In this document: one piece after another, positions 15,275 through 55,005 of the stretch
Position numbering within the stretch: position 1 is the stretch's first letter
Layout: each line of letters opens with the position of its first letter
Source of the DNA: an uncultured Bacteroidales bacterium
GTDB lineage: Bacteria > Bacteroidota > Bacteroidia > Bacteroidales > B18-G4
Direction of reading: 5' to 3'
NCBI GenBank assembly: GCA_964508895.1
Contig: CAZDWF010000005.1
Span: 1-55,005 of the forward strand
DNA: 55,005 bases
Position numbers and translations under genes: made by a program
The notes under the pieces: generated by a model
Databases searched by the model: none
What the model was told of the DNA's origin: nothing
Seen by the model: only the letters and a program-made list of their open reading frames with translations

Positions 15275-15290
15275 GAGATTTATTTCTTTA

Positions 15291-15514: not shown

Positions 15515-15545
15515 TCTTTATTTATGAATGGTTATTATTTTGCAT

Positions 15546-15574
15546 AAAAAAAAACGCTGGAAGGAATTCCAGCG
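15546..15574 (-). terminator. Intrinsic terminator of tRNA-Gln
   Basis: CGCTGGAA-N4-TTCCAGCG stem with a 9-nt T-tract on the minus strand. Confidence 0.8.
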
Positions 15575-15585
15575 CTTGTACTTCG

Positions 15586-15658
15586 TTGCCCGACTAGGTC
15601 TCGAACCTAGACTCTTCTGAACCAGAATCAGACGTGTTGCCAATTACACCATCGGGCA
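15586..15658 (-). tRNA. tRNA-Gln (anticodon CTG), CCA not encoded
   Basis: TGCCCGA/TCGGGCA acceptor stem, GTGT/ACAC D stem, TCTGA-TTCTGGT-TCAGA anticodon arm, CTAGG-TTCGAGA-CCTAG T arm; 73 nt. Confidence 0.97.
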
Positions 15659-15690
15659 TTGTCCACTATAGCTTTAGCAAAGGCGGGCTG

Positions 15691-15719
15691 CAAATTTACA
15701 AATTTTTTAAAAGAACAAA
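15691..15719 (-). promoter_or_regulatory. Bacteroidota primary-sigma promoter for tRNA-Gln
   Basis: TAAATTTG (-7) at 15691-15698 and TTTG (-33) at 15716-15719 on the minus strand. Confidence 0.65.
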
Positions 15720-15721
15720 AG

Positions 15722-27375: not shown

Positions 27376-27407
27376 TGCCGGATACCAAATAATTCTTAAT
27401 TCTTAAT

Positions 27408-28514: not shown

Positions 28515-28547
28515 GATATATGTATTTTCAGGTTTATACATTGTATT

Positions 28548-31500
28548 TTATCTGATTAAAGTAACTGTTCCCTGTTCTGCTCTTGAAAGCCCATCCATGT
28601 TTCCAGTACTTTCTCCTTCCCATATAATTCCATCTTTAAATATCGCCTTTACACGCCATAAGTAAACATCCTGAGGAAGCATTTTTCCTTTAAAGGTTCC
28701 ATTCCATGCTTCAGCCGGACTTCCGTACTCATCCAGTTCAGTAGATTCCCAAACCAGGTTACCCCATTGATCATATACCTGTATCATATATGAACTTAAT
28801 CCAATTCCCTTGGGTTTAAACAACCTGACCTCTTCATCTATACTCTCTGGTGCAAAAGCGTTGGGTATATAAAGAGCTTTAAATAGGAATTCAAAATCAA
28901 CATAAGAAGTATCAACACATCCATACTTGTTCCATACAATTAATTCTATAGTAAAGCCTCCGTCATTATCATATTGATGGGTAATGGGTGGCTCTGTTTC
29001 ATAGCTTATCAACCCATCTCCCCAATCCCACTGGTAATCCTGAGCACCATTGGATCCATCCTGAACAAATACATTGCCTTGAACATCATTGTAATTAGGC
29101 ACTACCCTGAAGTCACTCACAGGTGCTGCATGTACATTGACATTCTTACTGATCGAGTCCTTGCATCCTGTTGCATTTACTACCATCAGCTCCACAGTAT
29201 ACAATCCAAGCTGGGTATAATAATGCCTCGGATCTTGCTGGTAGGAAACAGGGCTTTGTGACAGGGAATCACCAAAGTCCCACTTCCAGTCAGTAATATT
29301 TGTATTCATATCAACCGATTCATCTGTAAATTCCGTGGGATCTCCCAAACATGCCGGGCTGGTGCTGAAGTCAGCTACAGGTTTTGCACTCACACTTACT
29401 GTGCTTTGCACAGAATCAGTACATCCAAACTTGTTGGTTACCATCAATACAACACTATAATCTCCTGCTATGGGATAGATATACGTCGGATCAGAAACCG
29501 ATGAGGTGTCGCCCTGTGATCCGGGCTCGCCAAAGTCCCAGCTCCAGCTCCTAATGTAAGAAGCTATGATGGATGTATCCCGGAATACAGACGCTTGCCC
29601 CTGGCATACCGGCTGACAGGTAAATCCTGCCGTTGGCAAAGGATGAACTATGATCACCTTGCTCATAGTATCTGAGATCGCATTGCCATGGATCAGTCCA
29701 TGGATCACAAAATGTACATGATATGTTCCAGGATGAGTATAAGTATGGGTAACTACAGAAGTTTGGTTCTGATAACTAATATGTGTGCCATCTCCCCAGA
29801 GCCATTCATACATTATAATATATGGATTTGCCTGGGTCATGTCCTGGAAGTGAACCTCAGTACCCTGGCATGTTACTGAATCCATCAGTGCAAAGCCGGA
29901 TAGTATGCATGGATTACTGGTTACCTGAAGGGTGATGGTATCCTTACAGCCATTTGTATTGGTGATGATCAATGTGACATGATATACTCCGGGAAGAGCA
30001 TATTTATGGCTTACAGGCTGGCCATTTGGAACTGTAAGAGTGAGTATGGGTGAGCCGTCTCCAAAGTCCCACTGCCACAAATCTATGAGTGTGCCATTGC
30101 CCATGGACTGATCGGTAAATGTTATGGTAGTATCACAGGGCGAATCAGACCAGTCGAAGCTTGCTACAGGTAAGGGATCCACCATCACCTGCTGATACTC
30201 TGTATGCGCACATCCGTTGTTGTCGGTAGATGTTAAGCTTACAGTATACACTCCAGCATTAGAGTAGGTATGTGAAGGATGCGGTAATACAGATATATTG
30301 CCAGGATACAGTGGCTCTCCAAAGTCCCAGAGATAATCTGTCAGGAAGGTTCCCGAGGGTGCAATAATGCTATCGCTTAAGTATGTCGGCTCTCCCAAAC
30401 AGGCCTGAGTATAGCTAATAGCCATATCAAAGGCTTCCGGTATACAAACCTGCTTAATAATAGTATCTCTGCATCCTCTGGTATCCGTAACTTCTAAACT
30501 TACGCTATAACAGCTGTCGCTATATGAAAATATGTATTGAGGATTTTGATGCACAGAATTATGAGCAGTCTCAAAAGTCCAGAACCATTCTGAGATAATG
30601 GATTGCTGGCTTGTTGTAGAATCCGTAAAATTAACGAGGCCTGTTTGACATAAATCCATTTGAAAATAGAAGTTTGCTTCAGGTCCTTCATATACTTCAA
30701 CAATTCTTGAAGCGGTATCCATACATCCATCAGCAGTGGTTACCACCAGCATCACGGTATATACCCCGCTGGATGAGTACTGATGGTTGGGGTGCTGTTG
30801 AGCAGAGGTGTTGTTAGCCCCTGAGCCGGGATCGCCAAAGTCCCACAACCACTGCATAACAGGTGAGCCTGCCACCACATAGGAGTGGTCTATGAAATAC
30901 GTCTTCTGCCCTGTACAGCTTGCCGTGTAGTTAAACACTGCCACCGGAGAGGGGGCAATATCCACAGCATGGGCTGCAGTGTTATCACAAGCCGAGGTAT
31001 CTGTCACTGTGAGTGTTACCGTATAGGTGCCATAATAAGAATAAACATGTGTTGGGTTCAACTGGTTGGAATGCGGCGAGCCGTCGCCAAAGTCCCAATC
31101 GTAAGCTATGATGGTGTTGATATTGGTTATTGTGCTATCCACATAAAACTGTGTCGCTTCGCCCTGACAGGTATTCTCATAGGTAAAATCAGTAGGTGGG
31201 GATGCCGATACCATCACCTGTCTTGTAAGGGTATCCATACAGCCATTCACATTGATAACCTCCAGGATCACTGCATAGCTTCCCGGTGAGGAGAAATAAT
31301 GCGTGGGGTTCTGCAGCTGGCTGGTATTGCTTGTGCCTGACTGTGGATCGCCAAAGTCCCAGCTCCAACTCTGGATATTGCCCCCTCCGTTAGGCTGTGA
31401 GGAGTCAAAGAACTCATACAAATCATCCTGGCAACTGCCCGTATGGGTGAACATCGCTACGGGTGAGAAGTCTATAATAACCACCTGTGTGCTGGTATTA

Positions 31501-34500: not shown

Positions 34501-37500
34501 AATACGCTGTCGCAGCTGGTAGTAGTATGATAAAAACTTGCGATAGGTCTTGGGTTTATATGTACATCCTGCAATAGGCTGCCCTGGCAACCGTTGCCGT
34601 CGGTAACGGTCAGTATTACCTGGTAGGTGCCGCCCGAAGAGTAGTAGTGCGTAGGATGCTGATCTGTAGTATCTGTAGTGCCATCGCCAAAGTCCCAGTG
34701 CCATGAGTTGATACTAGAAGGACCGGAAAGGAAAGAAAGATCCGTAAAGTAGGTGCTGTCACCATGGCATGATGGGGTCTGGTAAGTGAAGTCTGCCACA
34801 GGGATCTCATCAATATGTACACCTATGGTGATATAATCCTGACAGCCGTTTAAGCTCGTTACCCATAGGGTCACATAATAGGTGCCTGAGTTTTGGTAGA
34901 TGTGCGATGGGTCAGAAAAGGTCGAAGTGCCCCCGTCGTCAAAGTCCCACAAGTAACCCGTAATAGGTGATGATGGACTGGTGCTTAAGTTGGTAAACAG
35001 TGTGGGTAGCCCCATACAGGTCTGAGAGTATGTGAAATCCGGGGTGGGTCGCTCCAGATCAAGCACCTGGGTGAGGGTGTCTGTGCAGCCATTGGCATCA
35101 CTGACAATCAGTCTTACCGTATATTGTCCTGAGTGGATATACACATGCATAGGATGCTGGAGGCTGGAGTAATTATGCCAGCCTGAGGCCACATCGCCAA
35201 AGTCCCAATGCCAGCTCACTAGCGTATCGTCTATCCCGGAGGAAGCATCTGCAAAATATACCGTGTCACAGCCCGTAGTGGTGTAAGTAAACGAAGCTAC
35301 TGGTGGAGTGTTCACCAGTACCGGCTTTTGTATGCCTTTAGAGCAACCATTGGTATCGTAAACCGTCAGGGTGACTACGTAGGTTCCTGCATTGGTATAC
35401 AGATGGGACGGATGCTGGTGGAGGCTATCGTAACTGCCGTCACCAAAATCCCAGTACCAGGAGGTGATCTGTCCGGAAGTGACAGGGTGAGACAGGTCGG
35501 TAAAGTATGTCGTATCACCAAGACAGTTAGGAAAGTTATACGTAAAATCAGCCACAGGAAGGGCATAGACCGTTAACTCTTTGGTGATATCCGAGGTGCA
35601 GCCGTTCTCAGTGGTGACACTCAAGGATACATAATAAGTGCCCGCTGTGGTGTAGGTATGGCTTGGGTATTGAAGTACAGAGGAGCTACCGTCGCCAAAG
35701 TCCCAGTACCAGCTGATGATATTCTCCCCTATCGCATAGGAAAGGTTATCAAAAAATACCGGAGTGTTCAAACAGGTGGTGTCGAACCTGAAGTCAGCAA
35801 CAGGGCCCGGATAAACCTCTATAGTCTGGATCGTAAGGTTAGAACAGCCATTGGTGTTGGTGACCTCTAAGGTGACATCGTAAAAACCTGCCTGGGAGTA
35901 TGTGTGGCTGGGGTGCTGTATGCTGGAAGTGTTGCTGGCTCCGGAGGATGGATCTCCGAAATCCCACGCCCAGATGATAATGTTTGCCCCCGATCCGTTA
36001 CTGTAATCCGTAAAATGGGTCACATTGTTGATGCAGTTCTGATGTACATGGAATAAGGCCGTAGGCTTAGCATAAGAAACTACCATCTTGGTTGTCATAT
36101 CAACACATCCATTGGTATCTATTGCAGTCAGGCTAACGTGGTATTGGCCAGACTGCGGGAATAAATGGCCCACTGTATCTGCACCATTTGTATATGTCTG
36201 TATGGTTCCATCACCAAAATCATAAATAAAGGTACCTATTGGAACAGCTGAGGCTGTTGACTGATTATAGAACCAGGTAGTATCTCCTATACATTCATCA
36301 GTAAATGTAAAATCTGCAATGGGCGGAGCTCCTATGTTTATGGTGTGGATAATAGTATCATAACAACCTGAAATATTACCAACAATAAGCATTACATCAT
36401 ACGATCCTGAATTGTAGAAAATATGCGTTGGATGCTGAAATGTAGAAACATTTAGAAATCCAGAGCTTGGATCATCAAAGTTCCAGTACCAGCTATCAAT
36501 TTGTCCCATAACAGTATACGACAAGTCTGTAAAATGTGTCTCCATCAATGCACAGGCATTATCAAAATCAAAATCTGCTACAGGTATAGAAGATACTGCA
36601 ATTGTTACTAAATCTGTCGCAGTACAAGCTCTGGCATCAGTTACTACACATGAATATATTGTAGTTGTATCAGGAGTAGCAATTGGATTGCTAATATTAG
36701 GATTGCTAAGGTTTCCAGCAGGACTCCATGTGTAATTTAATGGTGGCGTTCCACCTGAAGCACTGGCAGTAAGTTGAGTAGATTCGTTAGCACAAATAGT
36801 AGTTTGTCCTGCCGAAACCATTAGCATTATCTGAGGATTTTCATATATGGTGATATTATCAGTAAGAGTACATCCATTGGCATCTGTTATTAACAGAGAA
36901 TGTATTCCCGGTCCAAGATTATAAACTGAATCAGTTGTAGCTCCTGTTCCTGAAGACCAACTATATGAATAAGGAGGAGCACCACCAAAAACATCAACAG
37001 ATGCCCATCCGTTGGTTTGTCCGAAACAAACAGTATCGGTATTGTTTAAAGAAAGATATAAAGCTGTATCTGGCTGATTAATTTCGATAGTGTCCTGTGC
37101 AATATTGCTGCTATTATCAGTAACAATAACAGTGTATAATCCTGCAGGAATGTTGAATAAAGTATCCTGTGTTCCAATTACTCCCGGATCAGGTATCAGG
37201 TACCAGGAAAATGAATAAGGTGGAACACCACCTAATATAGAAACAGCAGCCCATCCTGTATTATCACCATGACAAGCAACATTTTGTCCTGACATACTTA
37301 TGATCAATGAATCCGGTTGGGGTACAAAAACTGAAGAATAAGTAGTACATCCATTGGCATCAGTAACTGTATCGGTATAATTGCCTGAGGATAATCCTGT
37401 AACAGGATTGCCCGTCATTCCATTCGACCAGCTGTGGGAATACGGGGTAGTTCCACCTGCAACAATAGCATCAATTTCACCATCAGTACATCCCCAGCAT

Positions 37501-41711: not shown

Positions 41712-41778
41712 GAGTCTGGCTATTTTATAATGAAATACATATCATATACTTATCTTTTTTCACAATTTCTATCCTATT

Positions 41779-44700: not shown

Positions 44701-47700
44701 GTCTATAATAACCACCTGTGTGCTGGTATTAATGCAGCTATCAGAGGTGGTGACCGTTAAGCTAGCCAGGTAAGTGCCCGAAAGTGCATAACTGTGGTAT
44801 ACATCCGGATCATCAGGGAACAGTATGGTGCTGTCACCACCGTCGCCAAAGTCCCAATGCCATTTTATGATGTATCCATTGACAGTCGATGAGTTGTCAT
44901 CAAACAGTACCGGTAAGCCCTGGCAGTTTGGAGGTGTAGTGGTAAAGATCGGTGTGGGGCCTTCTAAGATGCTGATATCATGGAAAGCAGTGCCGGAACA
45001 ACCTTCGGTATTGGTGGCTGTCAGACTTACTGTGTATGTTCCGGGAACATTATACAAATGCTGGGATGTTGGGTTGTAGCCATAGGTGCCATCGCCAAAG
45101 TCCCAGTACCAATCGGTAATCGTGCCTGGGTCCATAACAGCAGTATCGGGTGAAAAGGTGATCAAAGTGTCCTCACACCTAATATCGTATACAAAATCTA
45201 CCGGAGGGCCCTGTTTGATATAAACCGGCTTGTCGATCGTATCGGTGCAGTTCTCATTGGTCATAATGATCAGGCGCACATCATAAGTGCTGTCACCATA
45301 AGAGAACAGGTGGGTGGGATCTTGCAGCTGGGAGATGTTATTGGTGCCCGAACCCGGATCATCAAACTCCCAGAACCATGAGATGATGCTTCCCGGTAAG
45401 TTAGGAAAAGAGGCATCTGAGAACTGTATGAGCTCATCCTCACAATCACCCGTCCAGTGAAAGTTAGCTATCGGTGAGTCGGTGACCTCCACCACCCTGC
45501 TAAAGGTATGGGTGCAGCTATCAGAGTTTTGTACCGTCAGTGTGGCGGAGTAAGTGCCCGGCTGAGAATAGGTATGCCATAGGTTAGGGTTGTCAGGAAA
45601 ATAAATGGTCTCTGTTGGTGAGCCGTCATCAAAGTCCCACATCCAGCTTACAATATAACCATAGGTGGTAGAGGAGTAATCCTGGAAATAGACACTGTCG
45701 TAATCACATACAGGCCCTGAGTGATCAAAGTTGGCCTGTGGCAAAGGCCTTACATCCACCGTATGGGTGATGGAGTTGTCACAGCCGTTGGTATCTGTGA
45801 TGGTGAGGGTGACATCAAAAAGACCCGTAGTGCTAAACACATGGGAAGGGTTAGGAATATTGGTAAAGCCCCCGTCGCCAAAGTCCCACAAATAGCTGGT
45901 GGTCATAGCCCAGTTAACTATTGTGGAGTCTATATAAAAATACGTGAGCTCGTTATGGCAGGTGGCACTGTGGTAATAGTCTACCGGTGGAGCATCACTC
46001 ACAGTGATCGCTTTTATGATCGTATCTGTACATCCGCTGGTATTGCTTACTATCTCTGTGATGGCGTAAATGCCAGGGGAGGTGAAAATATGCGTGGGAT
46101 GCTGTAGCGTAGATGTGTTCTGGGGTGATAAGGGATCACCGAAATCCCAATGCCACCAGCTTAGTGAGGTGCCCCCATTGGTGGTGGCCTGATCCTGGAA
46201 CTGTACGTATTCATTCTCGCAGGCTCCACCCGTATGGGTAAAATCAGCCGTAGGAGAGGCAATGACCATTAGCTGGTGTGATGTTATATCAAAACAGCCC
46301 GCGGCAGTAGTCACCTGCAAGCTTACAGTATATGCTCCCGGGTTCATATAGCTATGGGTGATGTCAGGGCTTTGTGGATAGTGGATCGTATCTGTGGTGC
46401 CATCACCAAAGTCCCAGATCCAGCTTATGATAGATACTCCCCCTTGAGTGAGTGAGTGATCGCTAAACAGTATGTCCTGCCCCTGGCACTGGTGGTTGCT
46501 AAAAGTAAAGCTTGCCATAGGTGGATCTGTCACATGTACAGGATTTACTACGCTGTGCTCACAGCCGTGGATATCGCTTACCGTTAATGTTACATTATAG
46601 ATACCCGAGGCGGTATAATTATGCGTGGGGTGCTGGGTGGCAGAATGGTTGAATGACCCTGAGGAGGGATCACCAAAGTCCCAGTAGTAGCTGGCTATGG
46701 CAGAAGGCCCTGAGGACAGATCGGTAAAATGGGTCGCCTGGCCAGGACAGCTTGTATCCGATACAAAGCCTGCCAGTGGCAAGGAGCGAACGCTCACCGC
46801 CTGGCTCGTGGTATCGGAACAGCCCTCTAAGTTGGTTACTATCAGGCTTACCTGGTAGGTGCCTGCATAAATATATGCGTGGGTGGGATGCTGTATGTTC
46901 TGGGCATAAGTGCCATCGCCAAAGTCCCACATCCAGCTCATAATACCTGATGAGGGAGCGGTGGAAAGGTCCGTAAAGTGGGTCACCTCACCCTGACAGG
47001 TGGAATCGGCAGAGAACATGGCCGTGGGCTGATCGGTGATCACAAGGCTCTTGGAAAGGCTTGCATGACAACCCTGGGTGGAGTAAACCGTCAGGGTCAC
47101 CTGGTATAAACCCGTTATCGTGTATACATGCGTGGGGTCTTGCTGGGTGGAGCTCATACCATCACCAAAGTCCCAATGCCAGGAGGTGATCGGCAAGGAG
47201 CCGGATATGGTGGAAAGGTCCGTGAAATAAGTGATATCACCCTGGCACAACCCCTGGTAGCTAAAGTCCGCCGTAGGAGAGTGATCTACCTCTACCGGAC
47301 GGATCACCTGAGAAGAGCAGCCCTGGGCGGTAAAGACCGTCAAAATCACATAATAGGTGCCTGGGAGTGAATAAGTGTGCATCGGGTGCTGGGTGGTAGC
47401 AGTGATGCCATCACCAAAGTCCCAATGCCAGCCGGTAATGCCGACGCCCTGGCAGGCAGACAGATCCGTAAACTGTGTGGGGGTACCCACACAGGCCGTA
47501 TCGGATGAAAAATCTGCCGTGGGCTTATACACATCTACCAGCTGTAACAGCGTATCCTCACAGCCGTGAGCATCGGTGACGATCAGCTCTACCGGATAAG
47601 TGCCGGAATTTACATATACATGTAATGGGTTTTGCACTGTGGAGTAATTGTTCCAGCCTGATCCGGGATCTCCAAAATCCCAGCTCCAGCTGATGATGCT

Positions 47701-50700
47701 GTCGCCCACACCAACCGACTGATCTGTAAAGAATACGCTGTCGCAGCTGGTAGTAGTATGATAAAAACTTGCGATAGGTCTTGGGTTTATATGTACATCC
47801 TGCAATAGGCTGCCCTGGCAACCGTTGCCGTCGGTAACGGTCAGTATTACCTGGTAGGTGCCGCCCGAAGAGTAGTAGTGCGTAGGATGCTGATCTGTAG
47901 TATCTGTAGTGCCATCGCCAAAGTCCCAGTGCCATGAGTTGATACTAGAAGGACCGGAAAGGAAAGAAAGATCCGTAAAGTAGGTGCTGTCACCATGGCA
48001 TGATGGGGTCTGGTAAGTGAAGTCTGCCACAGGGATCTCATCAATATGTACACCTATGGTGATATAATCCTGACAGCCGTTTAAGCTCGTTACCCATAGG
48101 GTCACATAATAGGTGCCTGAGTTTTGGTAGATGTGCGATGGGTCAGAAAAGGTCGAAGTGCCCCCGTCGTCAAAGTCCCACAAGTAACCCGTAATAGGTG
48201 ATGATGGACTGGTGCTTAAGTTGGTAAACAGTGTGGGTAGCCCCATACAGGTCTGAGAGTATGTGAAATCCGGGGTGGGTCGCTCCAGATCAAGCACCTG
48301 GGTGAGGGTGTCTGTGCAGCCATTGGCATCACTGACAATCAGTCTTACCGTATATTGTCCTGAGTGGATATACACATGCATAGGATGCTGGAGGCTGGAG
48401 TAATTATGCCAGCCTGAGGCCACATCGCCAAAGTCCCAATGCCAGCTCACTAGCGTATCGTCTATCCCGGAGGAAGCATCTGCAAAATATACCGTGTCAC
48501 AGCCCGTAGTGGTGTAAGTAAACGAAGCTACTGGTGGAGTGTTCACCAGTACCGGCTTTTGTATGCCTTTAGAGCAACCATTGGTATCGTAAACCGTCAG
48601 GGTGACTACGTAGGTTCCTGCATTGGTATACAGATGGGACGGATGCTGGTGGAGGCTATCGTAACTGCCGTCACCAAAATCCCAGTACCAGGAGGTGATC
48701 TGTCCGGAAGTGACAGGGTGAGACAGGTCGGTAAAGTATGTCGTATCACCAAGACAGTTAGGAAAGTTATACGTAAAATCAGCCACAGGAAGGGCATAGA
48801 CCGTTAACTCTTTGGTGATATCCGAGGTGCAGCCGTTCTCAGTGGTGACACTCAAGGATACATAATAAGTGCCCGCTGTGGTGTAGGTATGGCTTGGGTA
48901 TTGAAGTACAGAGGAGCTACCGTCGCCAAAGTCCCAGTACCAGCTGATGATATTCTCCCCTATCGCATAGGAAAGGTTATCAAAAAATACCGGAGTGTTC
49001 AAACAGGTGGTGTCGAACCTGAAGTCAGCAACAGGGCCCGGATAAACCTCTATAGTCTGGATCGTAAGGTTAGAACAGCCATTGGTGTTGGTGACCTCTA
49101 AGGTGACATCGTAAAAACCTGCCTGGGAGTATGTGTGGCTGGGGTGCTGTATGCTGGAAGTGTTGCTGGCTCCGGAGGATGGATCTCCGAAATCCCACGC
49201 CCAGATGATAATGTTTGCCCCCGATCCGTTACTGTAATCCGTAAAATGGGTCACATTGTTGATGCAGTTCTGATGTACATGGAATAAGGCCGTAGGCTTA
49301 GCATAAGAAACTACCATCTTGGTCATTGTATGAGAACATCCATTACTGTCTGATACCGTAAGGCTTACATGATACTGTCCTGCCTGGTTAAAAACATGGC
49401 CTACTGTATCTGCATCATAGATTGAATAATAAGTTTCTATAGTTCCATCACCGAAGTCATATTCCCAGATAGCAATCGGACCTAATGTTGGGGTTGCAGC
49501 TTCATAGAACCAGGTAGTATCATCCTTACATGAATTTCCAAACGTAAAATCTGAAAGAGGTGGTGTACTTATATATATTGTTTTAACAATAGTATCACTA
49601 CAACCATTATTACTCGCAACAGCAAGCATTACATCATAATAACCCGTTTGGATATATGAATGAACAGGGTTTTGTAATGTTGAAGTGTTATTAATACCAC
49701 TAGATGGATCATCAAAGTTCCAGTGCCATTCTATTATTCCTCCAGGTAATGCACCTGATTGATCAAAGAAATGAGTTGCAGATCCAACACATGGTATTAT
49801 ATAGCTGAAGTCAGCAACAGGCTGGTGCTGATTCCAGACATCTTTTGTAGTTGAATCTATACATCCATTCGAATTAGTAACAGTTAAAGTAACCTGAAAT
49901 ATTCCTGAAGAAGTGTATACATGAGTTGGATGTTGTAATGTTGATGAACCTCCGTCACCAAAATCCCACAGCCATGATGTTATGGCTCCGGAACCAGTAA
50001 TGTATGACTGATCAATGAAGTGGGTGGTATCACCATTACAGCTGGCAGCAATATATGTGAAATCTGCCACTGCGCCATCATCAAGGCTAACGGATTGTGA
50101 AGCAGTATCATAACATCCATTAATAGTTGTAACACTAAGTAAAATATTATAAGTTCCTGAATTACTATAAGTATACATAGGATTTTGCAGGATGGAAGTA
50201 TTGCCGTCACCGAAGTCCCAGTACCATGAAACAATAGTGTCACCATTAACTGTTGATTGATCTGTAAAATAAATTGTATCGTTATAACATGATGGATTGG
50301 TATGAATAAAATCAGCTACTGGCAATTCATAAATAGTGACCAATTTGTTGGTGTCGTTAAAGCATCCGCTATCCGAGACAATTGTCAGGCTGACAATGAA
50401 ATTTCCAGTTAAATTGTATGTATGAATAGGATTTTGAACGCCAGATGTGTTTCCATCACCAAAGTCCCAGCTCCAGCTTGAAATTTGTCCTGGATAAGAA
50501 GTAATACCATGAAAACTTGTTTGAAGGCCAACACAATTTGTATCATAAGTAAAATCTACCAAAGGTTTTTCAAATATATTCACAGATTTTATTGTAGTAT
50601 CATGGCAGCCATCGGAGTTGGTTACGATTAAGCTAACATTATATAATCCTGGACTTGTATAGATATTAACAGGGTTTTCCAGGATGGAAGTATTGCCATC

Positions 50701-53700
50701 ATCAAAGTTCCAGGACCAAGCTATAAGGCTATCTGCATTTGCTATTGTAAGATCATTAAAGAACACTGTATCGCTATTGCAACTGATTGCATTATAATTA
50801 AAGTCTGCAATAGGAGTTGAATGGATCTCAACTGCAATGGTAGTATCACCATTACATCCGTTTGAATTAACAACTTGCAGGAATACATTATAGGTTCCTG
50901 AAGAATTATAAGAATGCACAGGATTTTGCAATAGTGAAGTATTTCCATCCCCGAAATTCCAGAACCAGGAAATAATACTGTCTGCATTAGGAATTGACTG
51001 GTCTACGAATTGAGTGTTGGCATTTACACAGGCATCGGTATAGCTAAAATCCACTGCAGGGTTATTAAGAATTATGATGTTTTGAGTTATAGTATCAACA
51101 CAGTTATTAATTGTAAAAACTATCAGTGTCACATTGTAGCTTCCCTGATTAACATAATTATGTATAGGGTTTTGCAATACAGAGGAATTACCATCTCCGA
51201 AATCCCATAACCATGCTGAGATCGTATCTAGGTTACAGCTTGAATTATCCAGGAATTGAATACTATCGCAATTCAACATACTATAAGTAAATGATGCCAG
51301 CGGATCATCAATGATCAGTAAAGAATTGGAGGTAGTATCCCAGCAACCAAGGGTATCGAAAATAGTAAGTGATACGTTATAATGTCCCGGATTAACATAT
51401 TGATGTGCTGTATTCTGGTTAATGCTGTCATAAGTTCCATCACCAAAGTTCCAATACCAGTTTTGCAATGGTGTATTTCCTGAAATAACTGACGCATCGG
51501 TGAAGTATGCAGAATCATAATTACAATTCTGGGCAGTTAAGTTAAAATCAGCAATTGGTGATTCAGTAATTTGAATTGATCTGACAATAGTATCTTCACA
51601 ATAATTTGTATTGATAACTATTAATCTCACATTATATGTTCCGGGAGTTACATATGTATGTGTTGGATTTTGCTGAACCGATGTATTGGCAAAACCTGAA
51701 GCCGGATCATCAAAATCCCAGTTCCATCCGACGATTACACCAAATTGTACAGTCGATAGATCAAAGAAGCTGGTTAATTGTCCTGCACAGGGAGCCTGAT
51801 AAGCAAAGTTAGCAACTGGTGGTTCCTGAACTGTAACCACTTTTATAACAGTATCCGAACATCCTGAAGTATTAAAAACTATTAATGTTACATTAAATGT
51901 TCCATGGGTAGCATAATGGTGAGCCGGATGCTGCATATTTGAAGAACTTCCATCACCAAAATCCCAATCCCAGTTAGCTATCCCTGTAGCATTTGGAATT
52001 GAAGAATCATAAAACTGAACTGAATCATTCTGGCAGGATTGCTGTGAGAAACCAAAGTTTGCAAATGGTGAAGGGTTGATTTGAACCTGCATACTTGTAT
52101 CATCAATGCATCCATTTGAATTGATCACCTGCAGATAAACGCTGTAGAGTCCTTGCCCTGCAAAAATATGAGAAGGATGTTGCAGGTTTGATGTATATCC
52201 ATCACCAAAGTTCCAGTACCATTGAATCAGGCTATCGGAATTTGAAATTGACAAATCCGTAAAATACACAGTTTCTCCTGAACAATTTCCTGTATAGGTA
52301 TATGCGGCAACAGGACTTGGACCCACATTTATTGTATCGGTAATTGTATCTGAGCAACCGTTGTTTGTTGTAATAATCAGACTTACGCTATAATCTCCAA
52401 TTAAATTATAAAAATGCGTAGGGTTTTGCAGGAAGGAGGTATCCAAAGAGCCCGATCCAGGATCCCCAAATGTCCATATCCATGAGTTAATAATACCTGA
52501 AACAGTAGTTGATATATCAAGAAATTGTGTTGGCAAACCTACGCAGCTTGCATTGTAATTAAATGCGGCTATTGGATTTCCGGAAATAACTATTGATTTT
52601 GAAATTGAATCTAAACATCCATCTGAATTAACAACAATCAGACTCACCTGGTATGTTCCTATTGAGATATAAGTATTTGCAGGATTTTGTTGTATAGAAG
52701 TGTTTCCATCACCAAAGTCCCAGCTCCACGAAATAATATTACCAGCATTTGCAACAGATAAGTCCTGGAAATTTATATTATAGTTTTCACATGAAGGTTG
52801 ATCCCAGGTAAAATCCGGAATTGGTAATGCATCTATTATAATGGCAATTGTAGTATCATCAACACATCCATCGGAGTTTGTAGTGGTAAGCGACACATTA
52901 TAAGTTCCAAAAGAGGCGAAGGTATGTGTTGGATGTTGAGTTGATGAAGTGTAACCATTATCAAAATCCCAGTACCAGCTTATCAGTGAATCGGCATTAT
53001 GTGTTGAAAGATCAGTGAATATCGTTGGATTTCCTTCACAGGTTCCTGTATAGGTAAATGAACTTTCAGGCAATTGCCAAACCAGTATATCATTGATTAT
53101 GGTATCATAGCATCCAATGGTATTCCCAATAATAAGGGTTACCTGGAAGGTTCCTGCTGAGCTGAAAAGATGTGTCGGACTTTGTTGTGTTGAAGTGTTA
53201 GCTCCGGAGTTTGGATCACCGAAGTTCCAACTCCATGAGCTGATGGATCCTGTGTTAACCGATGAAAGATCAGTAAAGTGTGTTAAACTGTTAGAGCAAA
53301 CTGTATCAAAAGTAAAGTCGGCTATAGGTCCGTCATGCACAAATACAGATCTTGTTATTGAATCTGAGCATCCATCAAGATTTGAAACCACAAGTTTTAC
53401 CTGGTAGGTGCCAACATTGGAGTAATTATGTATTGGATTCTGAAGAGCTGAAGTATTACCATCTCCAAAGTTCCAATACCAACTGTTAACAGATGAACCA
53501 AAAATTGTATCTGTCAGATCTGTAAAATAAGTCAACCCATTTATACAGGATGTAGAATCACTGAAATCAGGAATTGGAATTGCATTTATTTGAACTGCTA
53601 TAGTAGTATCATTTGAACAGTTGTTTGAATTCACAATCATCAGGTTAACATTATAATTTCCTGAAGAAGCAAAATTATGAGATGGATTTTGAGATGATGA

Positions 53701-55005
53701 TGTATAGCCGTCATCAAAATTCCAATACCAGCTGATCAGTGAATCTGCATTATGAGAAGACAGATCAGTGAAAATGGTAGGATTTCTTTCACATGTTCCT
53801 GTAAAAGCAAATAATGCATCAGGAAGATCATATACTAATATGTCTTTGGTAATAGTATCATAACAACCGATAGTGCTTGAAATGATCAATGATACTGTAT
53901 AAACTCCATTGCTTGAAAACTGATGTCCCGGACTTTGCTGCGTAGAATTATTACTTGCTCCTGATGCGGGATCACCAAAATCCCAGTACCATGAATTAAG
54001 GATGCCTGTATTTACATATGACAGATCAACAAACTGAGTGGTTTGTCCGTGGCAAACTGTATCAAAAGTAAAATCAGCTAAAGGTCCATCGTGAACGAAA
54101 ACAGATTTTGTAACCGAATCGCAGCATCCTGAAGAATTATGAATTAATAATTTTACACTATACACCCCTGTGGATGAGTAATAATGAACCGGATGTTGTT
54201 GTGTTGATGTGTTACCATCATCAAAATCCCAATACCAGTTTGTGATAGGACTTCCATTCATGTTAACACTCAGATCGGTGAAATAGGTAAATCTATTCAG
54301 GCAGGAAGTTGAATCTGAGAAATCTGGAATTGGAATAGAAGCAATGTAGATGCTTATTGTAGTATCATCATTGCATCCATTAGAGTTTTCGACGGTAAGG
54401 GTAACATCATATGTCCCATAAGAAGCAAAAATGTGGCTGGGATTTGGTTCAGAAGAAGTATGACCATCATCAAAATCCCAATACCAGCTGATCAGTGAAT
54501 CCGCATTATGTATAGATAAATCAGTAAATAGTGTTGGATTGTTTGCACATGTACCAGTATATGTAAAAGAGGCTGCAGGCAATGCATATACATGGATAAG
54601 CTGAGTTGCTGTATCGTAACATCCTGTGGTATTGCCAACAATTAATGATACGGTATATATTCCGGTGGATACATAAATGTGACTTGGATCATGCAAAGTA
54701 GAAGTGTTACCGTCTCCAAAATTCCATAACCAGGAGTTGATCACGCCAAATGCAGAAGATGAAAGATCGGTAAAGTTAGTTGGTGTTCCCTGACAGGCAG
54801 TATCAGCTGTGAAGTCTGCCACCGGACCGTCAAAGGATATCACAGATTTAGTTATGGAATCCTGGCAGCCATCCTGGTTTGTTATGATCAGTTGAACCTG
54901 GTAAGTTCCTGATATCAGGAAATTGTGAACCGGATGTTGCAATGTCGATATGTTTCCATCGCCAAAACTCCAGTTCCAGGATGCGATGCCTGAACCATTT
55001 GTGGT
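41779..55005 (-). CDS. Giant adhesin B (>4400 aa, 5' end outside the window): roughly 50 or more PKD repeats plus T9SS type-B C-terminal domain
   Basis: Frame stays open past 54942 to the edge (TTNGSGIASWNWSFGDG...); continuous PKD repeats; C-terminal domain paralogous to adhesin A. Confidence 0.93.
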   Translation of the reverse strand, partial: TTNGSGIASWNWSFGDGNISTLQHPVHNFLISGTYQVQLIITNQDGCQDSITKSVISFDGPVADFTADTACQGTPTNFTDLSSSAFGVINSWLWNFGDGNTSTLHDPSHIYVSTGIYTVSLIVGNTTGCYDTATQLIHVYALPAASFTYTGTCANNPTLFTDLSIHNADSLISWYWDFDDGHTSSEPNPSHIFASYGTYDVTLTVENSNGCNDDTTISIYIASIPIPDFSDSTSCLNRFTYFTDLSVNMNGSPITNWYWDFDDGNTSTQQHPVHYYSSTGVYSVKLLIHNSSGCCDSVTKSVFVHDGPLADFTFDTVCHGQTTQFVDLSYVNTGILNSWYWDFGDPASGASNNSTQQSPGHQFSSNGVYTVSLIISSTIGCYDTITKDILVYDLPDALFAFTGTCERNPTIFTDLSSHNADSLISWYWNFDDGYTSSSQNPSHNFASSGNYNVNLMIVNSNNCSNDTTIAVQINAIPIPDFSDSTSCINGLTYFTDLTDTIFGSSVNSWYWNFGDGNTSALQNPIHNYSNVGTYQVKLVVSNLDGCSDSITRSVFVHDGPIADFTFDTVCSNSLTHFTDLSSVNTGSISSWSWNFGDPNSGANTSTQQSPTHLFSSAGTFQVTLIIGNTIGCYDTIINDILVWQLPESSFTYTGTCEGNPTIFTDLSTHNADSLISWYWDFDNGYTSSTQHPTHTFASFGTYNVSLTTTNSDGCVDDTTIAIIIDALPIPDFTWDQPSCENYNINFQDLSVANAGNIISWSWDFGDGNTSIQQNPANTYISIGTYQVSLIVVNSDGCLDSISKSIVISGNPIAAFNYNASCVGLPTQFLDISTTVSGIINSWIWTFGDPGSGSLDTSFLQNPTHFYNLIGDYSVSLIITTNNGCSDTITDTINVGPSPVAAYTYTGNCSGETVYFTDLSISNSDSLIQWYWNFGDGYTSNLQHPSHIFAGQGLYSVYLQVINSNGCIDDTSMQVQINPSPFANFGFSQQSCQNDSVQFYDSSIPNATGIANWDWDFGDGSSSNMQHPAHHYATHGTFNVTLIVFNTSGCSDTVIKVVTVQEPPVANFAYQAPCAGQLTSFFDLSTVQFGVIVGWNWDFDDPASGFANTSVQQNPTHTYVTPGTYNVRLIVINTNYCEDTIVRSIQITESPIADFNLTAQNCNYDSAYFTDASVISGNTPLQNWYWNFGDGTYDSINQNTAHQYVNPGHYNVSLTIFDTLGCWDTTSNSLLIIDDPLASFTYSMLNCDSIQFLDNSSCNLDTISAWLWDFGDGNSSVLQNPIHNYVNQGSYNVTLIVFTINNCVDTITQNIIILNNPAVDFSYTDACVNANTQFVDQSIPNADSIISWFWNFGDGNTSLLQNPVHSYNSSGTYNVFLQVVNSNGCNGDTTIAVEIHSTPIADFNYNAISCNSDTVFFNDLTIANADSLIAWSWNFDDGNTSILENPVNIYTSPGLYNVSLIVTNSDGCHDTTIKSVNIFEKPLVDFTYDTNCVGLQTSFHGITSYPGQISSWSWDFGDGNTSGVQNPIHTYNLTGNFIVSLTIVSDSGCFNDTNKLVTIYELPVADFIHTNPSCYNDTIYFTDQSTVNGDTIVSWYWDFGDGNTSILQNPMYTYSNSGTYNILLSVTTINGCYDTASQSVSLDDGAVADFTYIAASCNGDTTHFIDQSYITGSGAITSWLWDFGDGGSSTLQHPTHVYTSSGIFQVTLTVTNSNGCIDSTTKDVWNQHQPVADFSYIIPCVGSATHFFDQSGALPGGIIEWHWNFDDPSSGINNTSTLQNPVHSYIQTGYYDVMLAVASNNGCSDTIVKTIYISTPPLSDFTFGNSCKDDTTWFYEAATPTLGPIAIWEYDFGDGTIETYYSIYDADTVGHVFNQAGQYHVSLTVSDSNGCSHTMTKMVVSYAKPTALFHVHQNCINNVTHFTDYSNGSGANIIIWAWDFGDPSSGASNTSSIQHPSHTYSQAGFYDVTLEVTNTNGCSNLTIQTIEVYPGPVADFRFDTTCLNTPVFFDNLSYAIGENIISWYWDFGDGSSSVLQYPSHTYTTAGTYYVSLSVTTENGCTSDITKELTVYALPVADFTYNFPNCLGDTTYFTDLSHPVTSGQITSWYWDFGDGSYDSLHQHPSHLYTNAGTYVVTLTVYDTNGCSKGIQKPVLVNTPPVASFTYTTTGCDTVYFADASSGIDDTLVSWHWDFGDVASGWHNYSSLQHPMHVYIHSGQYTVRLIVSDANGCTDTLTQVLDLERPTPDFTYSQTCMGLPTLFTNLSTSPSSPITGYLWDFDDGGTSTFSDPSHIYQNSGTYYVTLWVTSLNGCQDYITIGVHIDEIPVADFTYQTPSCHGDSTYFTDLSFLSGPSSINSWHWDFGDGTTDTTDQHPTHYYSSGGTYQVILTVTDGNGCQGSLLQDVHINPRPIASFYHTTTSCDSVFFTDQSVGVGDSIISWSWDFGDPGSGWNNYSTVQNPLHVYVNSGTYPVELIVTDAHGCEDTLLQLVDVYKPTADFSSDTACVGTPTQFTDLSACQGVGITGWHWDFGDGITATTQHPMHTYSLPGTYYVILTVFTAQGCSSQVIRPVEVDHSPTADFSYQGLCQGDITYFTDLSTISGSLPITSWHWDFGDGMSSTQQDPTHVYTITGLYQVTLTVYSTQGCHASLSKSLVITDQPTAMFSADSTCQGEVTHFTDLSTAPSSGIMSWMWDFGDGTYAQNIQHPTHAYIYAGTYQVSLIVTNLEGCSDTTSQAVSVRSLPLAGFVSDTSCPGQATHFTDLSSGPSAIASYYWDFGDPSSGSFNHSATQHPTHNYTASGIYNVTLTVSDIHGCEHSVVNPVHVTDPPMASFTFSNHQCQGQDILFSDHSLTQGGVSIISWIWDFGDGTTDTIHYPQSPDITHSYMNPGAYTVSLQVTTAAGCFDITSHQLMVIASPTADFTHTGGACENEYVQFQDQATTNGGTSLSWWHWDFGDPLSPQNTSTLQHPTHIFTSPGIYAITEIVSNTSGCTDTIIKAITVSDAPPVDYYHSATCHNELTYFYIDSTIVNWAMTTSYLWDFGDGGFTNIPNPSHVFSTTGLFDVTLTITDTNGCDNSITHTVDVRPLPQANFDHSGPVCDYDSVYFQDYSSTTYGYIVSWMWDFDDGSPTETIYFPDNPNLWHTYSQPGTYSATLTVQNSDSCTHTFSRVVEVTDSPIANFHWTGDCEDELIQFSDASFPNLPGSIISWFWEFDDPGSGTNNISQLQDPTHLFSYGDSTYDVRLIIMTNENCTDTIDKPVYIKQGPPVDFVYDIRCEDTLITFSPDTAVMDPGTITDWYWDFGDGTYGYNPTSQHLYNVPGTYTVSLTATNTEGCSGTAFHDISILEGPTPIFTTTPPNCQGLPVLFDDNSSTVNGYIIKWHWDFGDGGDSTILFPDDPDVYHSYALSGTYLASLTVTTSDSCINTSTQVVIIDFSPVAMFTHTGSCQDDLYEFFDSSQPNGGGNIQSWSWDFGDPQSGTSNTSQLQNPTHYFSSPGSYAVILEVINVNGCMDTLTRQVMVSASPPTDFTYENTCQGEATQFYVDSTITNINTIIAYDWDFGDGSPHSNQLNPTHVYSYYGTYTVTLTVTDTSACDNTAAHAVDIAPSPVAVFNYTASCTGQKTYFIDHSYVVAGSPVMQWLWDFGDPGSGANNTSAQQHPNHQYSSSGVYTVMLVVTTADGCMDTASRIVEVYEGPEANFYFQMDLCQTGLVNFTDSTTSQQSIISEWFWTFETAHNSVHQNPQYIFSYSDSCYSVSLEVTDTRGCRDTIIKQVCIPEAFDMAISYTQACLGEPTYLSDSIIAPSGTFLTDYLWDFGEPLYPGNISVLPHPSHTYSNAGVYTVSLTSTDNNGCAHTEYQQVMVDPLPVASFDWSDSPCDTTITFTDQSMGNGTLIDLWQWDFGDGSPILTLTVPNGQPVSHKYALPGVYHVTLIITNTNGCKDTITLQVTSNPCILSGFALMDSVTCQGTEVHFQDMTQANPYIIMYEWLWGDGTHISYQNQTSVVTHTYTHPGTYHVHFVIHGLIHGNAISDTMSKVIIVHPLPTAGFTCQPVCQGQASVFRDTSIIASYIRSWSWDFGEPGSQGDTSSVSDPTYIYPIAGDYSVVLMVTNKFGCTDSVQSTVSVSAKPVADFSTSPACLGDPTEFTDESVDMNTNITDWKWDFGDSLSQSPVSYQQDPRHYYTQLGLYTVELMVVNATGCKDSISKNVNVHAAPVSDFRVVPNYNDVQGNVFVQDGSNGAQDYQWDWGDGLISYETEPPITHQYDNDGGFTIELIVWNKYGCVDTSYVDFEFVYKALYIPNAFAPQSMDPEVRLFTPKGIGLRKYLIQVIDQWGNLVWESTKLDENGSPVESWDGTFKGKFMPQDVYVWRVKAIFRDDTIWEGESIGNNNGLSREEQGTVTLIR
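42119..49323. repeat. 7,205-bp direct repeat, copy 2
   Basis: Identity starts after ...TATACA and ends at ...ACCATCTTGGT; the first bases outside differ from copy 1 at both ends. Confidence 0.93.

What the first reader, a model, noticed from the sequence alone, without database searches (positions are those of the whole stretch)
28548..55005. Twin giant T9SS adhesins sharing an identical 7.2-kb stalk but different heads and tails: candidate recombination-based surface variation system
Seen: 28888-36092 and 42119-49323 appear identical (about 2,400 aa, roughly 28 PKD domains). The C-terminal domains and the one or two domains just upstream of the block are homologous but diverged, including at synonymous sites. 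The distal halves differ entirely (SprB repeats in A, PKD only in B). Old divergence around a perfect core suggests recent or ongoing gene conversion rather than simple duplication. Inference: a crossover between the in-frame direct repeats would delete 13,231 bp, giving head B-stalk-tail A on the chromosome and a circle with an intact head A-stalk-tail B gene. Unequal exchange would amplify the array. This would switch adhesins without a dedicated recombinase.
Basis: partly seen in the sequence, partly recalled or inferred. Interest (0 to 1): 0.85.

Follow-up and report, generated by a model that had tools for sequence, protein, structure and literature searches.

The report
Tandem gliding adhesins share converted stalk
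Two neighbouring giant surface-adhesin genes of an uncultured marine bacterium carry the same 7.2-kb middle section because one copy was recently pasted over the other by ordinary recombination, which is a known way for surface proteins to evolve and not a dedicated switching device.

Summary
The repeat is real. Window 28888-36092 equals 42119-49323 (7205 bp, 0 mismatches). It lies inside two tandem same-strand SprB-like adhesin genes that precede one PorP/SprF gene. The flanks are old: the C-terminal domains are 75% identical in DNA, with synonymous sites saturated (pS 0.71).

Contigs from three seawater metagenome studies break at the block's borders and give it about twice the flank depth. 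Two copies therefore exist. The perfect identity is less secure. Two samples carry a second, diverged allele of a 197-nt patch (30545-30741). In a third sample the doubled block starts only near 30742-31456. The window is a whole contig of a draft metagenome genome, so an assembler walking one graph edge twice would make the copies identical by construction.

Gene B is cut by the contig end. Its likely N-terminus, on contig C27, also has SprB repeats, so "PKD only in B" holds only inside the window.

Best reading: repeated interlocus gene conversion between old tandem paralogues. I found no evidence of a programmed switch, deletion junctions or a circle. All three same-family genomes with under 10 contigs show similar twin or triplet adhesin genes.

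The parts
28548..41711 (-). Gene A: complete 4387-aa SprB-like adhesin. It has an N-terminal hydrophobic leader, PKD domains, SprB repeats, a long PKD array and a type B CTD.
   Evidence: Collinear at 39% aa with the single 4465-aa gene that precedes PorP in relative G007.
41779..55005 (-). Gene B: the C-terminal 4408 aa of a larger adhesin, open at the contig end. Inside the window it is PKD-only plus a type B CTD.
   Evidence: The probable N-terminal 2005 aa lie on contig C27:27043-33057.
28888..36092 (-). Identical block, copy in gene A (aa 1874-4275; 27 PKD_4 stretches).
   Evidence: About 2x depth, with contig breaks at both borders in X2 and X3.
42119..49323 (-). Identical block, copy in gene B.
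30545..30741 (-). Patch inside the block that has a second, diverged, equal-length allele in 3 of the 4 runs laid. The corresponding place in copy B is 43776-43972. The assembled window shows the same allele in both copies.
   Evidence: tables 5 and 8: 257-nt contig pairs at depth 11.9/15.3 (X2) and 11.4/16.1 (X3). X11 carries only the other allele.
28551..28889 (-). Tail A: 113-aa type B (CHU_C-like) T9SS C-terminal domain, diverged from tail B.
41782..42120 (-). Tail B: 113-aa type B CTD, 77.7% aa identical to tail A.
   Evidence: Modelled against the PorP/SprF protein: score 0.80, best of 3 controls 0.00.
27408..28541 (-). PorP/SprF-family T9SS outer-membrane protein, starting 6 nt after the stop of gene A. 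It is the presumed shuttle/anchor for both adhesins.
   Evidence: TIGR03519, 196.6 bits against a cut-off of 90.55.
41712..41778 (-). 67-nt spacer between the stop of gene B and the start of gene A. No terminator-like hairpin on the coding strand.
36093..36650 (-). Two PKD domains of gene A just upstream of the block. They are homologous to those of gene B (49324-49890) but old-diverged and carry an indel.
   Evidence: alignment; pS 0.59-0.76; alignment extends to 36401/49638.
37212..39911 (-). SprB-repeat region of head A.
   Evidence: (7 SprB stretches).
50533..54897 (-). Tandem array of about 753-756-bp units (three PKD domains each, 60-75% alike) in head B, running to the contig end.

Best explanation
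Genes B and A are old tandem paralogues of a SprB-like gliding/adhesion filament protein. They are exported by the type IX secretion system through type B C-terminal domains and are handled by the single PorP/SprF-like protein encoded just downstream; the three genes probably form one operon, B-A-porP. Homologous recombination has recently copied a 7.2-kb stretch of the PKD 'stalk' from one gene onto the other (interlocus gene conversion), probably in at least two steps. Both adhesins now carry the same 27-domain stalk, while the N-terminal heads and the secretion/anchoring tails keep their old divergence. The two long direct repeats can also cross over and delete 13.2 kb, but this is a by-product of the repeat and not a device.

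Shown: the identity, the saturated flank divergence, two copies in nature, and different block limits between samples. Inferred: the conversion mechanism, co-transcription, use of a shared shuttle, and the adhesin function.
For: There are 0 mismatches in 7205 bp, with an abrupt change to 25-35% mismatch at both borders. The tails have pS 0.71 and dN 0.14, which means old paralogues under purifying selection. Tail A and tail B are 78% aa identical to each other and 67-69% identical to the same-genus orthologue G001. The block is 57% aa / 65% nt identical to that orthologue, so the block is far younger than the gene pair.

Because head A and tail B, which lie between the two copies, stay diverged, a deletion-and-reduplication cycle cannot explain the pattern. 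Only non-reciprocal transfer can (inference).

Independent contigs behave as follows. In X2 and X3, contigs end exactly at 28888 and 36092. Block depth is 14.6-17.9 against flanks of 8.5-9.4 in X2, and 20.8-21.8 against 11.1-11.3 in X3. No single-base difference between the copies is listed in those two runs. In X1 the contig from the tail A flank runs unbroken through 28888 to 30771 at 1x (8.65), and the 2x part (18.9) begins at 31456 after a SNP bubble with both alleles at 7.5/7.6. The tract limit is therefore polymorphic.

Functional context: PorP/SprF lies downstream; SprA, GldJ and at least 4 PorP genes are in the genome; all 5 tails examined match CHU_C; and the CTD B-PorP model scores 0.80 against a best of 3 controls of 0.00, a mark reached by 58 of 80 solved complexes and 2 of 110 mismatched pairs, with at least 94% contact agreement and partner pLDDT of at least 85.

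Similar twins occur in relatives with long contigs. G011 has 7132 bp at 99.8% with unrelated heads, plus a third copy at 93%. G021 has 7.4 kb at 96.6%. G004 has three copies at 88-91%.
Against: The window is one contig of a draft metagenome genome with N50 23 kb and N runs of 10 and 100. If the assembler traversed one graph edge twice, the identity is made by construction and hides small differences. The dimorphic 197-nt patch in X2, X3 and X11 may be exactly such a hidden difference.

The patch alleles and the X1 pattern could instead reflect co-occurring strains and not differences between the two copies. Patch depths sum to about 27, more than the block's 18-22. All laid runs are contigs, not reads, and X1-X3 are each flagged as a possible source of the window, so they are not fully independent.

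Recombination between about 75%-identical DNA is normally rare, so how the first transfer started is unexplained. No strain series or long reads were available. The relatives' twin genes are paralogous families (tails 41-47% aa identical to ours; no PorP within the 40-kb stretches) and not the same locus.
Confidence: 0.7

Rival explanations
1. Assembly collapse: two copies exist but are only near-identical. The contig's perfect identity, including the 197-nt patch, arises because a short-read assembler walked one collapsed graph edge twice. This rivals the claim of 'perfect identity', not the claim of gene conversion.
For: The draft metagenome genome consists of 321 scaffold-like contigs. The only repeats of 300 bp or more at 95% or more in the whole genome are 4 intra-contig tandem ones; none lies between contigs. 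X2 and X3 each hold two alleles of patch 30545-30741 at roughly single-copy depth, and X11 holds only the allele absent from the window. In X1 the reference allele is linked to the tail A flank.
Against: Outside the patch, X2 and X3 list no position with two letters across 1657 + 5351 bp at 2x depth, whereas X1 does keep a SNP bubble, so such bubbles are not always removed. The copies are therefore at least nearly identical in nature. The window differs from X1, X2 and X3 at 2-4 fixed sites each, so it may come from a strain in which the patch is also homogenised.
Confidence: 0.45
2. Programmed or selected switching: crossovers between the two in-frame blocks are used to change the displayed adhesin, by a deletion giving head B-stalk-tail A plus a 13.2-kb circle, or by amplification.
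For: The geometry is correct and in frame. A 7.2-kb perfect direct repeat is a good RecA substrate (general knowledge). The type B CTD carries targeting information (PMC12618676, passages read), so swapping tails could matter. 'Same stalk, different head' recurs in all 3 of the same-family genomes with under 10 contigs.
Against: None of the 21 other ORFs of 150 aa or more in the window matches a recombinase or transposase family; 5 of them match nothing. Both genes are complete, with their own CTDs, and are not silent cassettes. Block depth is about 2.0x the flanks in X2 and X3, and in X1 from about 31456 on, so there is no sign of frequent loss or gain. The circle has no evident origin, so the event would be irreversible. 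Both tails are close (78% aa), and tail B is modelled onto the same PorP, so a tail swap may change little. Junctions cannot be detected with contigs.
Confidence: 0.07
3. Reverse history: a young tandem duplication of the stalk-bearing gene, after which the tails and head-proximal domains of one copy were replaced by recombination with a divergent paralogue or a foreign allele.
For: In relative G011 the near-identical block includes the CTD and 190 nt of 3' flank and looks like a plain recent duplication with different heads. The genome holds other type B tails that could act as donors: C9 at 44% and C161 at 44% aa.
Against: This needs two separate replacements, one on each side, giving similar divergence. 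No donor closer than 44% to either tail is present in the genome. Tails A and B are each other's closest relatives and are both about equally far from the G001 orthologue, as expected of an old duplicate pair. The nested block limits in X1 compared with X2/X3 fit spreading homogenisation.
Confidence: 0.12
4. Pure artefact: only one block exists, or A and B belong to different strains and were chimerically joined.
For: It is a metagenome bin. The tail B-head A junction was not checked against independent contigs.
Against: Block depth is twice the flank depth in three studies. In X1 and X3 a second contig leaves 36092 into unlike sequence at single-copy depth (10.2 and 12.2), beside the head A contig (11 and 11.1).
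Confidence: 0.04

Closest known systems
Flavobacterium johnsoniae SprB with SprF (type B CTD cargo plus cognate PorP/SprF-like shuttle encoded directly downstream)
   Same: A giant repetitive cell-surface protein with SprB repeats, a type B (CHU_C) C-terminal domain and a porP/sprF-family gene immediately downstream. SprA and GldJ are present in the genome. The literature states that type B cargo needs the shuttle encoded downstream, and that closely related CTDs can share a shuttle (PMC12618676, passages read).
   Different: Here two adhesin genes in tandem precede one shuttle gene. The stalk is built from PKD domains. The CTD scores lie just under the curated cut-offs. Nothing is known experimentally about this organism. 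The sprCDBF operon order is recalled, not tested.
Porphyromonas gingivalis hagA / rgpA / kgp adhesin-domain repeats
   Same: [quoted passage not shown] They break short-read assemblies and are shuffled by homologous recombination (PMC5266723, passages read).
   Different: Those genes are dispersed, carry type A CTDs, and have shorter repeat units made of haemagglutinin/cleaved-adhesin domains. Here a single 7.2-kb block is shared by adjacent genes with type B CTDs.
Helicobacter pylori babA/babB (and sabA/sabB) interlocus gene conversion; Mycoplasma genitalium MgPa repeats
   Same: RecA-type non-reciprocal exchange between paralogous adhesin genes, without a dedicated site-specific recombinase, producing chimeric adhesins.
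   Different: In those systems the conserved ends drive exchange of a variable middle, and phenotypic switching has been shown. Here the middle is homogenised, the ends stay different, and no switching is shown. The bab/sab facts are recalled. For MgPa only the listing and abstract start were seen (PMC2169797).
Twin or triplet giant type B CTD genes in same-family genomes G011, G021 and G004
   Same: Tandem giant PKD adhesin genes sharing 6-7.4-kb blocks at 88-99.8% identity with unrelated N-terminal heads.
   Different: Their blocks include the CTD and, in G011, the 3' flank. No PorP gene lies within the 40 kb fetched. Their tails are only 41-47% identical to ours, so they are a paralogous family and not the same locus.

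Membership tests
T9SS type B CTD cargo (SprB-like adhesin) | C-terminal type B sorting domain (Pfam CHU_C PF13585 / TIGR04131) | tested here: inconclusive
   Tail A: PF13585 26.8 bits against cut-off 27, and TIGR04131 27 against 35. Tail B: PF13585 20.9-26.2 against 27, and TIGR04131 21.9 against 35. All 5 of 5 aligned tails (A, B and 3 orthologues) match CHU_C at E <= 0.01, best 6e-08.
T9SS type B CTD cargo (SprB-like adhesin) | porP/sprF-family gene directly downstream | tested here: met
   27408-28541 (-) matches TIGR03519 at 196.6 bits against cut-off 90.55, 6 nt after the stop of gene A. Gene B is separated from it by gene A. The same pairing occurs in G001, G006 and G007.
T9SS type B CTD cargo (SprB-like adhesin) | CTD binds its PorP/SprF-like shuttle | tested here: met
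   Model only. Tail B + PorP: score 0.80, best of 3 controls 0.00. The mark was reached by 58 of 80 solved complexes and 2 of 110 mismatched pairs; runs agree in at least 94% of contacts; partner pLDDT is at least 85. The pass may reflect likeness to known complexes. Tail A was not modelled.
T9SS type B CTD cargo (SprB-like adhesin) | T9SS and gliding core genes present in the genome | tested here: met
   SprA 2721 bits (cut-off 200) on C79; GldJ 496.8 bits with its neighbouring stretches (cut-off 458.2) on C44; 4 PorP-family genes over the cut-off. Other core genes were not searched.
T9SS type B CTD cargo (SprB-like adhesin) | SprB repeats (PF13573) | tested here: met
   Gene A: 6-7 stretches, 176-193 bits. 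Gene B inside the window: none. Its probable N-terminal part on C27: 4 stretches, 94 bits.
T9SS type B CTD cargo (SprB-like adhesin) | N-terminal Sec signal peptide | not tested
   A hydrophobic leader is visible by eye in gene A and in the C27 gene. No signal-peptide predictor was available.
Interlocus gene conversion / concerted evolution of paralogues | Identical tract bounded on both sides by old divergence in homologous sequence | tested here: met
   0 of 7205 mismatches, against pS 0.71 in the tails and 0.59-0.76 in the upstream domains.
Interlocus gene conversion / concerted evolution of paralogues | Paralogous tracts group within the genome, not with orthologues | tested here: met
   Blocks A and B are identical, while the same-genus orthologues G001 and G003 are 64-67% nt / 57% aa identical. 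There is only one genome per species and no strain series.
Interlocus gene conversion / concerted evolution of paralogues | Tract limits vary between individuals or populations | tested here: inconclusive
   The left limit is 28888 in X2 and X3 and about 30742-31456 in X1. A patch is left out in X2, X3 and X11. This rests on contigs only, and strain mixtures are not excluded.
Programmed DNA-rearrangement variation system (shufflon, invertase switch, silent-cassette system) | Dedicated recombinase or silent donor cassettes at the locus | tested here: not met
   The 21 other ORFs of 150 aa or more gave no recombinase, integrase or transposase family; 5 had no family at all. ORFs under 150 aa were not scanned. 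Both adhesin genes are full length with their own CTD.
Programmed DNA-rearrangement variation system (shufflon, invertase switch, silent-cassette system) | Recombinant forms present as sub-populations | not testable with these tools
   Both junctions of a deletion product already exist in the parental arrangement, so 7.2 kb must be spanned by single molecules. Only contigs were available.

The most novel reading that the evidence does not exclude
In this family of marine Bacteroidota, giant gliding adhesins may be built as 'one common stalk, many heads'. Recurrent gene conversion would keep a 6-7-kb PKD stalk uniform among tandem and dispersed paralogues, perhaps because filaments riding the same gliding track must match in length or packing. 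Heads diversify, and in this locus the CTD is actively spared. Crossovers within the shared stalk would then reshuffle heads and CTD targeting signals across the population, acting as a recombinase-free cassette exchange for surface adhesion.
Probability: 0.15. Interest if true: 0.65.

Novelty: new member of a known kind. Interest (0 to 1): 0.38.

Why it matters
The locus is a clean natural example of concerted evolution acting on only the structural stalk of two T9SS gliding adhesins, while the binding ends and secretion/anchoring ends stay distinct. The tract limits appear to differ between ocean samples taken from 2018 to 2025. It suggests that in uncultured marine Bacteroidota the repertoire of giant adhesins turns over by ordinary homologous recombination.

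There is also a practical warning. Such loci are exactly where short-read metagenome genomes are least trustworthy: gene B is split over two contigs, and copy differences may be collapsed. Gene counts, lengths and 'identical paralogue' claims from such bins need long-read confirmation.

It does not open a new mechanism. The same principle is known from P. gingivalis gingipain/HagA genes and from H. pylori and Mycoplasma adhesins.

Tried and rejected
The repeat finder with seed 20 did not report the 7.2-kb pair; it listed only the 300-nt tail family at offset 13231. The identity was therefore measured by script.

A scan of metagenome contigs with 617 aa of the block matched 597 stretches, of which 547 were relatives and the best 80 were kept. 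All were 28-38% identical, so no near strain was found and there was no unconverted copy to compare. The tool notes that records of the window's own genome may be left out.

In the genome search, 24 of 41 genomes including G000 had matches. The nearest non-self matches were 64-67% identical, and with one genome per species no strain comparison was possible.

The joints, table 5 that skip 1489-3299 nt have sides of 21-23 letters. I read them as contigs of other PKD genes touching a conserved motif, not as deletions. Loose ends at 31853-37275 were read the same way.

X11 (21 records, depth 2) holds the block from exactly 28888 to 36092 and no flank at 95% likeness. I cannot explain why.

No shared 31-mer explains a stop there.

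The promoter/terminator scan of the spacer found 2 promoter-like sites against 2.9 expected, and one terminator-like site on the non-coding strand. It is uninformative, and Bacteroidota promoters are not covered.

No PorP was found within 40 kb of the twin genes of G011, G021 and G004, so they are not the same locus.

The literature search for 'SprB' with 'gene conversion' found 1 paper, which was unrelated. The search with adhesin / tandem paralogs / gene conversion / concerted evolution / Bacteroidetes found 46 papers holding at least 3 terms, 12 listed, none on SprB-like tandem genes. So I found nothing in print on this locus type in those two searches. Supplementary files were not opened; the CTD motif and AlphaFold pair figures of PMC12618676 are in supplements that I did not see. 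PMC9143113 was seen only as a listing and abstract start.

The remark that N runs of 10 and 100 suggest a particular scaffolder is recalled and was not tested.
Full report
**What is in the sequence.** At a fixed offset of 13231 bases, window 28888-36092 equals 42119-49323 over 7205 bases without a mismatch, and the window has no N. Both borders are abrupt. Mismatches begin at 28887, 28886, 28882 on one side and at 36093, 36094, 36096 on the other. Towards the 3' ends of the genes, identity stays at 75-79% down to the stop codons. Towards the 5' ends it drops from 96% to 65% and then to random within 200 nt at fixed offset. A gapped alignment carries homology on to 36401/49638.

The general repeat finder missed the pair, so the measurement rests on my script. 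The two copies lie in two same-strand ORFs. Gene A is 28548-41711 (-), 4387 aa and complete. Gene B is 41779 to the window end (-), with 4408 aa in view and open at its 5' end.

**What the genes are.**
- Gene A has 33 PKD_4 stretches, 6 SprB repeats and a C-terminal CHU_C match at 26.8 bits (cut-off 27).
- Gene B, as seen in the window, has 50 PKD_4 stretches, no SprB repeat, and CHU_C at 20.9 bits.
- The block alone holds 27 PKD_4 stretches.
- TIGR04131, the type B sorting domain, scores 27 and 21.9 against a cut-off of 35.
- All five aligned tails (A, B and three orthologues) match CHU_C at E <= 0.01.

Six bases after the stop of gene A begins a PorP/SprF-family gene, 27408-28541 (-), TIGR03519 at 196.6 bits against 90.55. 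The genome also encodes SprA, GldJ and four PorP-family genes over the cut-off.

Passages of PMC12618676 state three things: type B cargo needs the PorP/SprF-like shuttle encoded directly downstream; closely related CTDs can share a shuttle; and the CTD also carries a targeting signal. A complex model of tail B with the PorP protein scored 0.80, with the best of 3 controls at 0.00. That mark was reached by 58 of 80 solved complexes and 2 of 110 mismatched pairs. The runs agreed in at least 94% of contacts, and partner pLDDT was at least 85. This supports binding but does not show it, and it may reflect likeness to known complexes. I read the locus as an operon B-A-porP for two SprB-like gliding or adhesion filaments. 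Co-transcription is inferred only from the 67-nt and 6-nt gaps and the lack of a terminator-like hairpin on the coding strand.

**The window is a whole contig.** It is contig C5 of a 321-contig, 3.93-Mb draft with N50 23 kb and 36% GC, from seawater metagenomes. Gene B is cut by the contig end.

Contig C27 ends, in the matching orientation, inside the same kind of three-PKD repeat array. Its last 23 bases recur 27 bases in from the C5 end. Its open frame of 2005 aa starts with a hydrophobic leader, is 35-42% identical and collinear with head A, and has 4 SprB repeats. It is the only other homologue of head A's N-terminus in the genome.

Gene B is therefore probably more than 6400 aa long and has an A-like N-terminus. 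The link is probable and not proven: the ends do not overlap exactly, and contig C161 also starts with an orphan tail.

**Age of the flanks.** Over the 112 aligned tail codons, DNA identity is 75%, protein identity 77.7%, pS 0.71 (dS about 2.2, saturated) and dN 0.14. The two PKD domains upstream of the block align with an indel and give pS 0.59-0.76. Tails A and B are closer to each other (78%) than to the same-genus orthologue G001 (67% and 69%). The PorP genes are 72% identical. The block is 57% aa and about 65% nt identical to that orthologue. In G007 a single 4465-aa gene collinear with gene A precedes PorP.

So the pair is an old duplicate, made after the split from G001's lineage, and the block is far younger than the pair. 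Head A and tail B lie between the two blocks and remain diverged. A cycle of deletion and re-duplication therefore cannot give this pattern; non-reciprocal copying can.

**Is the identity real?** Logan contigs of four runs from four studies were laid on 27001-38000.

- **X2 and X3.** Contigs end exactly at 28888 and 36092. The block's depth is 14.6-17.9 against 8.5-9.4 in X2, and 20.8-21.8 against 11.1-11.3 in X3. In X3 a second contig at single-copy depth leaves 36092 into unlike sequence. No position in the block shows two letters in these runs.
- **The patch.** Both runs hold two equal-length 257-nt contigs for 30515-30771. One is like the window and the other is diverged over 30545-30741. 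Their depths are 11.9/15.3 (X2) and 11.4/16.1 (X3). X11, a tiny run, has only the diverged allele.
- **X1.** The contig from the tail A flank runs through 28888 to 30771 at depth 8.65. Then comes a 713-nt contig at 11.4, then a SNP bubble at 31455 with alleles at 7.5 and 7.6. Only then comes the 2x contig, 31456-36092, at 18.9.

I conclude that two copies exist in nature and are identical, or nearly so, over most of the block. The left limit of the doubled part differs between samples. A 197-nt patch may still differ between the copies in some populations.

The window shows one allele in both copies. In a short-read graph assembly both passes over a collapsed edge are identical by construction, so the window cannot decide this. 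The genome has only four repeats of 300 bp or more at 95% or more, all tandem within contigs, plus N runs of 10 and 100. That fits such an assembly; the assembler is not known to me.

Three caveats apply. All the data are contigs. X1-X3 are each flagged as a possible source of the window. Strain mixtures could mimic differences between the copies.

**Relatives.** All three same-family genomes with fewer than 10 contigs (G004, G011, G021) carry tandem giant type B CTD genes with large near-identical blocks.
- G011 has 7132 bp with 16 mismatches, covering the CTD and 190 nt of 3' flank. Its heads are unrelated, and a third dispersed copy is 93% identical.
- G021 has 7.4 kb at 96.6%.
- G004 has three copies at 88-91% and a fourth at 64%.

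These are a paralogous family: their tails are 41-47% identical to ours, and no PorP lies within the 40 kb fetched. Long-contig assemblies thus show that such twins are a real and recurrent feature of the family. Our locus differs in that the tails are spared.

**Mechanism and rivals.**
- **Best reading (0.7).** Repeated RecA-type interlocus gene conversion between old tandem paralogues homogenises the stalk.
- **Collapse of small copy differences by the assembler (0.45).** This is compatible with the best reading. It concerns only the word 'perfect'.
- **Dedicated or selected switch (0.07).** None of the 21 other ORFs of 150 aa or more matches a recombinase family, and 5 match nothing. There are no silent cassettes. 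Depth is about 2.0x. The circle would be lost, so the event is a one-way deletion.
- **Reverse history, with a young duplication followed by replacement of both flanks (0.12).**
- **Pure artefact (0.04).**

How the first transfer began between DNA only about 75% identical is unexplained.

**Comparison with what is known.**
- Functionally the genes match the SprB/SprF paradigm of Flavobacterium johnsoniae (PMC12618676, passages read).
- The closest precedent for shared identical adhesin-coding blocks among T9SS cargo genes is P. gingivalis hagA/rgpA/kgp, whose repeats also break short-read assemblies (PMC5266723, passages read).
- Adhesin gene conversion without a dedicated recombinase is known from H. 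pylori bab/sab (recalled) and from M. genitalium MgPa (abstract start only).
- Two literature searches found nothing on tandem SprB-like genes with converted stalks.

**Verdict.** The gene-conversion inference is supported, and I now have weak evidence that tract limits vary between populations. The 'variation system' is not supported. This is a new member of a known kind, of moderate interest (0.38). The most useful follow-up is long-read confirmation and a strain series.

Noticed in passing
window 55005 (contig end) and G000 C27:27043-33059: Gene B is split over two contigs. C27 ends in the same three-PKD repeat array and shares its last 23 bases with a site 27 bases inside the C5 end, but the ends are not the same repeat unit. 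One or more units may therefore be missing from the assembly.
   Followed up: partly
run X11 laid on window 28888-36092: A tiny run (21 records, depth 2) holds the block from exactly its first to its last base, with the alternative patch allele, and holds none of the flanks at 95% likeness. I cannot explain why the block appears alone.
   Followed up: no
G000 C2:11050-16292: An immediate tandem duplication of 2627 bp at 99.96% carries two genes (432 aa and 234 aa) twice. C43:10975-12671 has an 833-bp repeat at 100%, and C6:49565-50713 has a 579-bp repeat at 99.8%. These are the only other long near-identical repeats in the genome.
   Followed up: partly
window 7052-9079 (+), 11819-12928 (-), 24849-26276 (-): Three further T9SS cargo genes carry type A sorting tails (Por_Secre_tail). 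One has BNR/sortilin-like repeats, and one is a C10 peptidase with an I69 inhibitor-like prodomain. The region is rich in secreted surface proteins.
   Followed up: no
window 50533-54897: Head B is a tandem array of about 753-756-bp units (three PKD domains each) only 60-75% alike. This is an older internal expansion, in contrast to the perfect block.
   Followed up: partly
G011 C1:234111-253178 and C2:937804-949557; G004 C2:384137-419986: Same-family genomes hold arrays of two to four giant type B CTD genes with shared stalk-and-tail blocks (64-99.8% identical) and unrelated heads. In G011 the 190 nt after the downstream gene's stop repeat the 190 nt after the upstream gene's stop, which include the start of the downstream gene itself; this marks the duplication unit.
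   Followed up: partly
window 14134-15721: About 1.6 kb has no ORF of 150 aa or more on either strand. It was not examined for small genes or RNAs.
   Followed up: no
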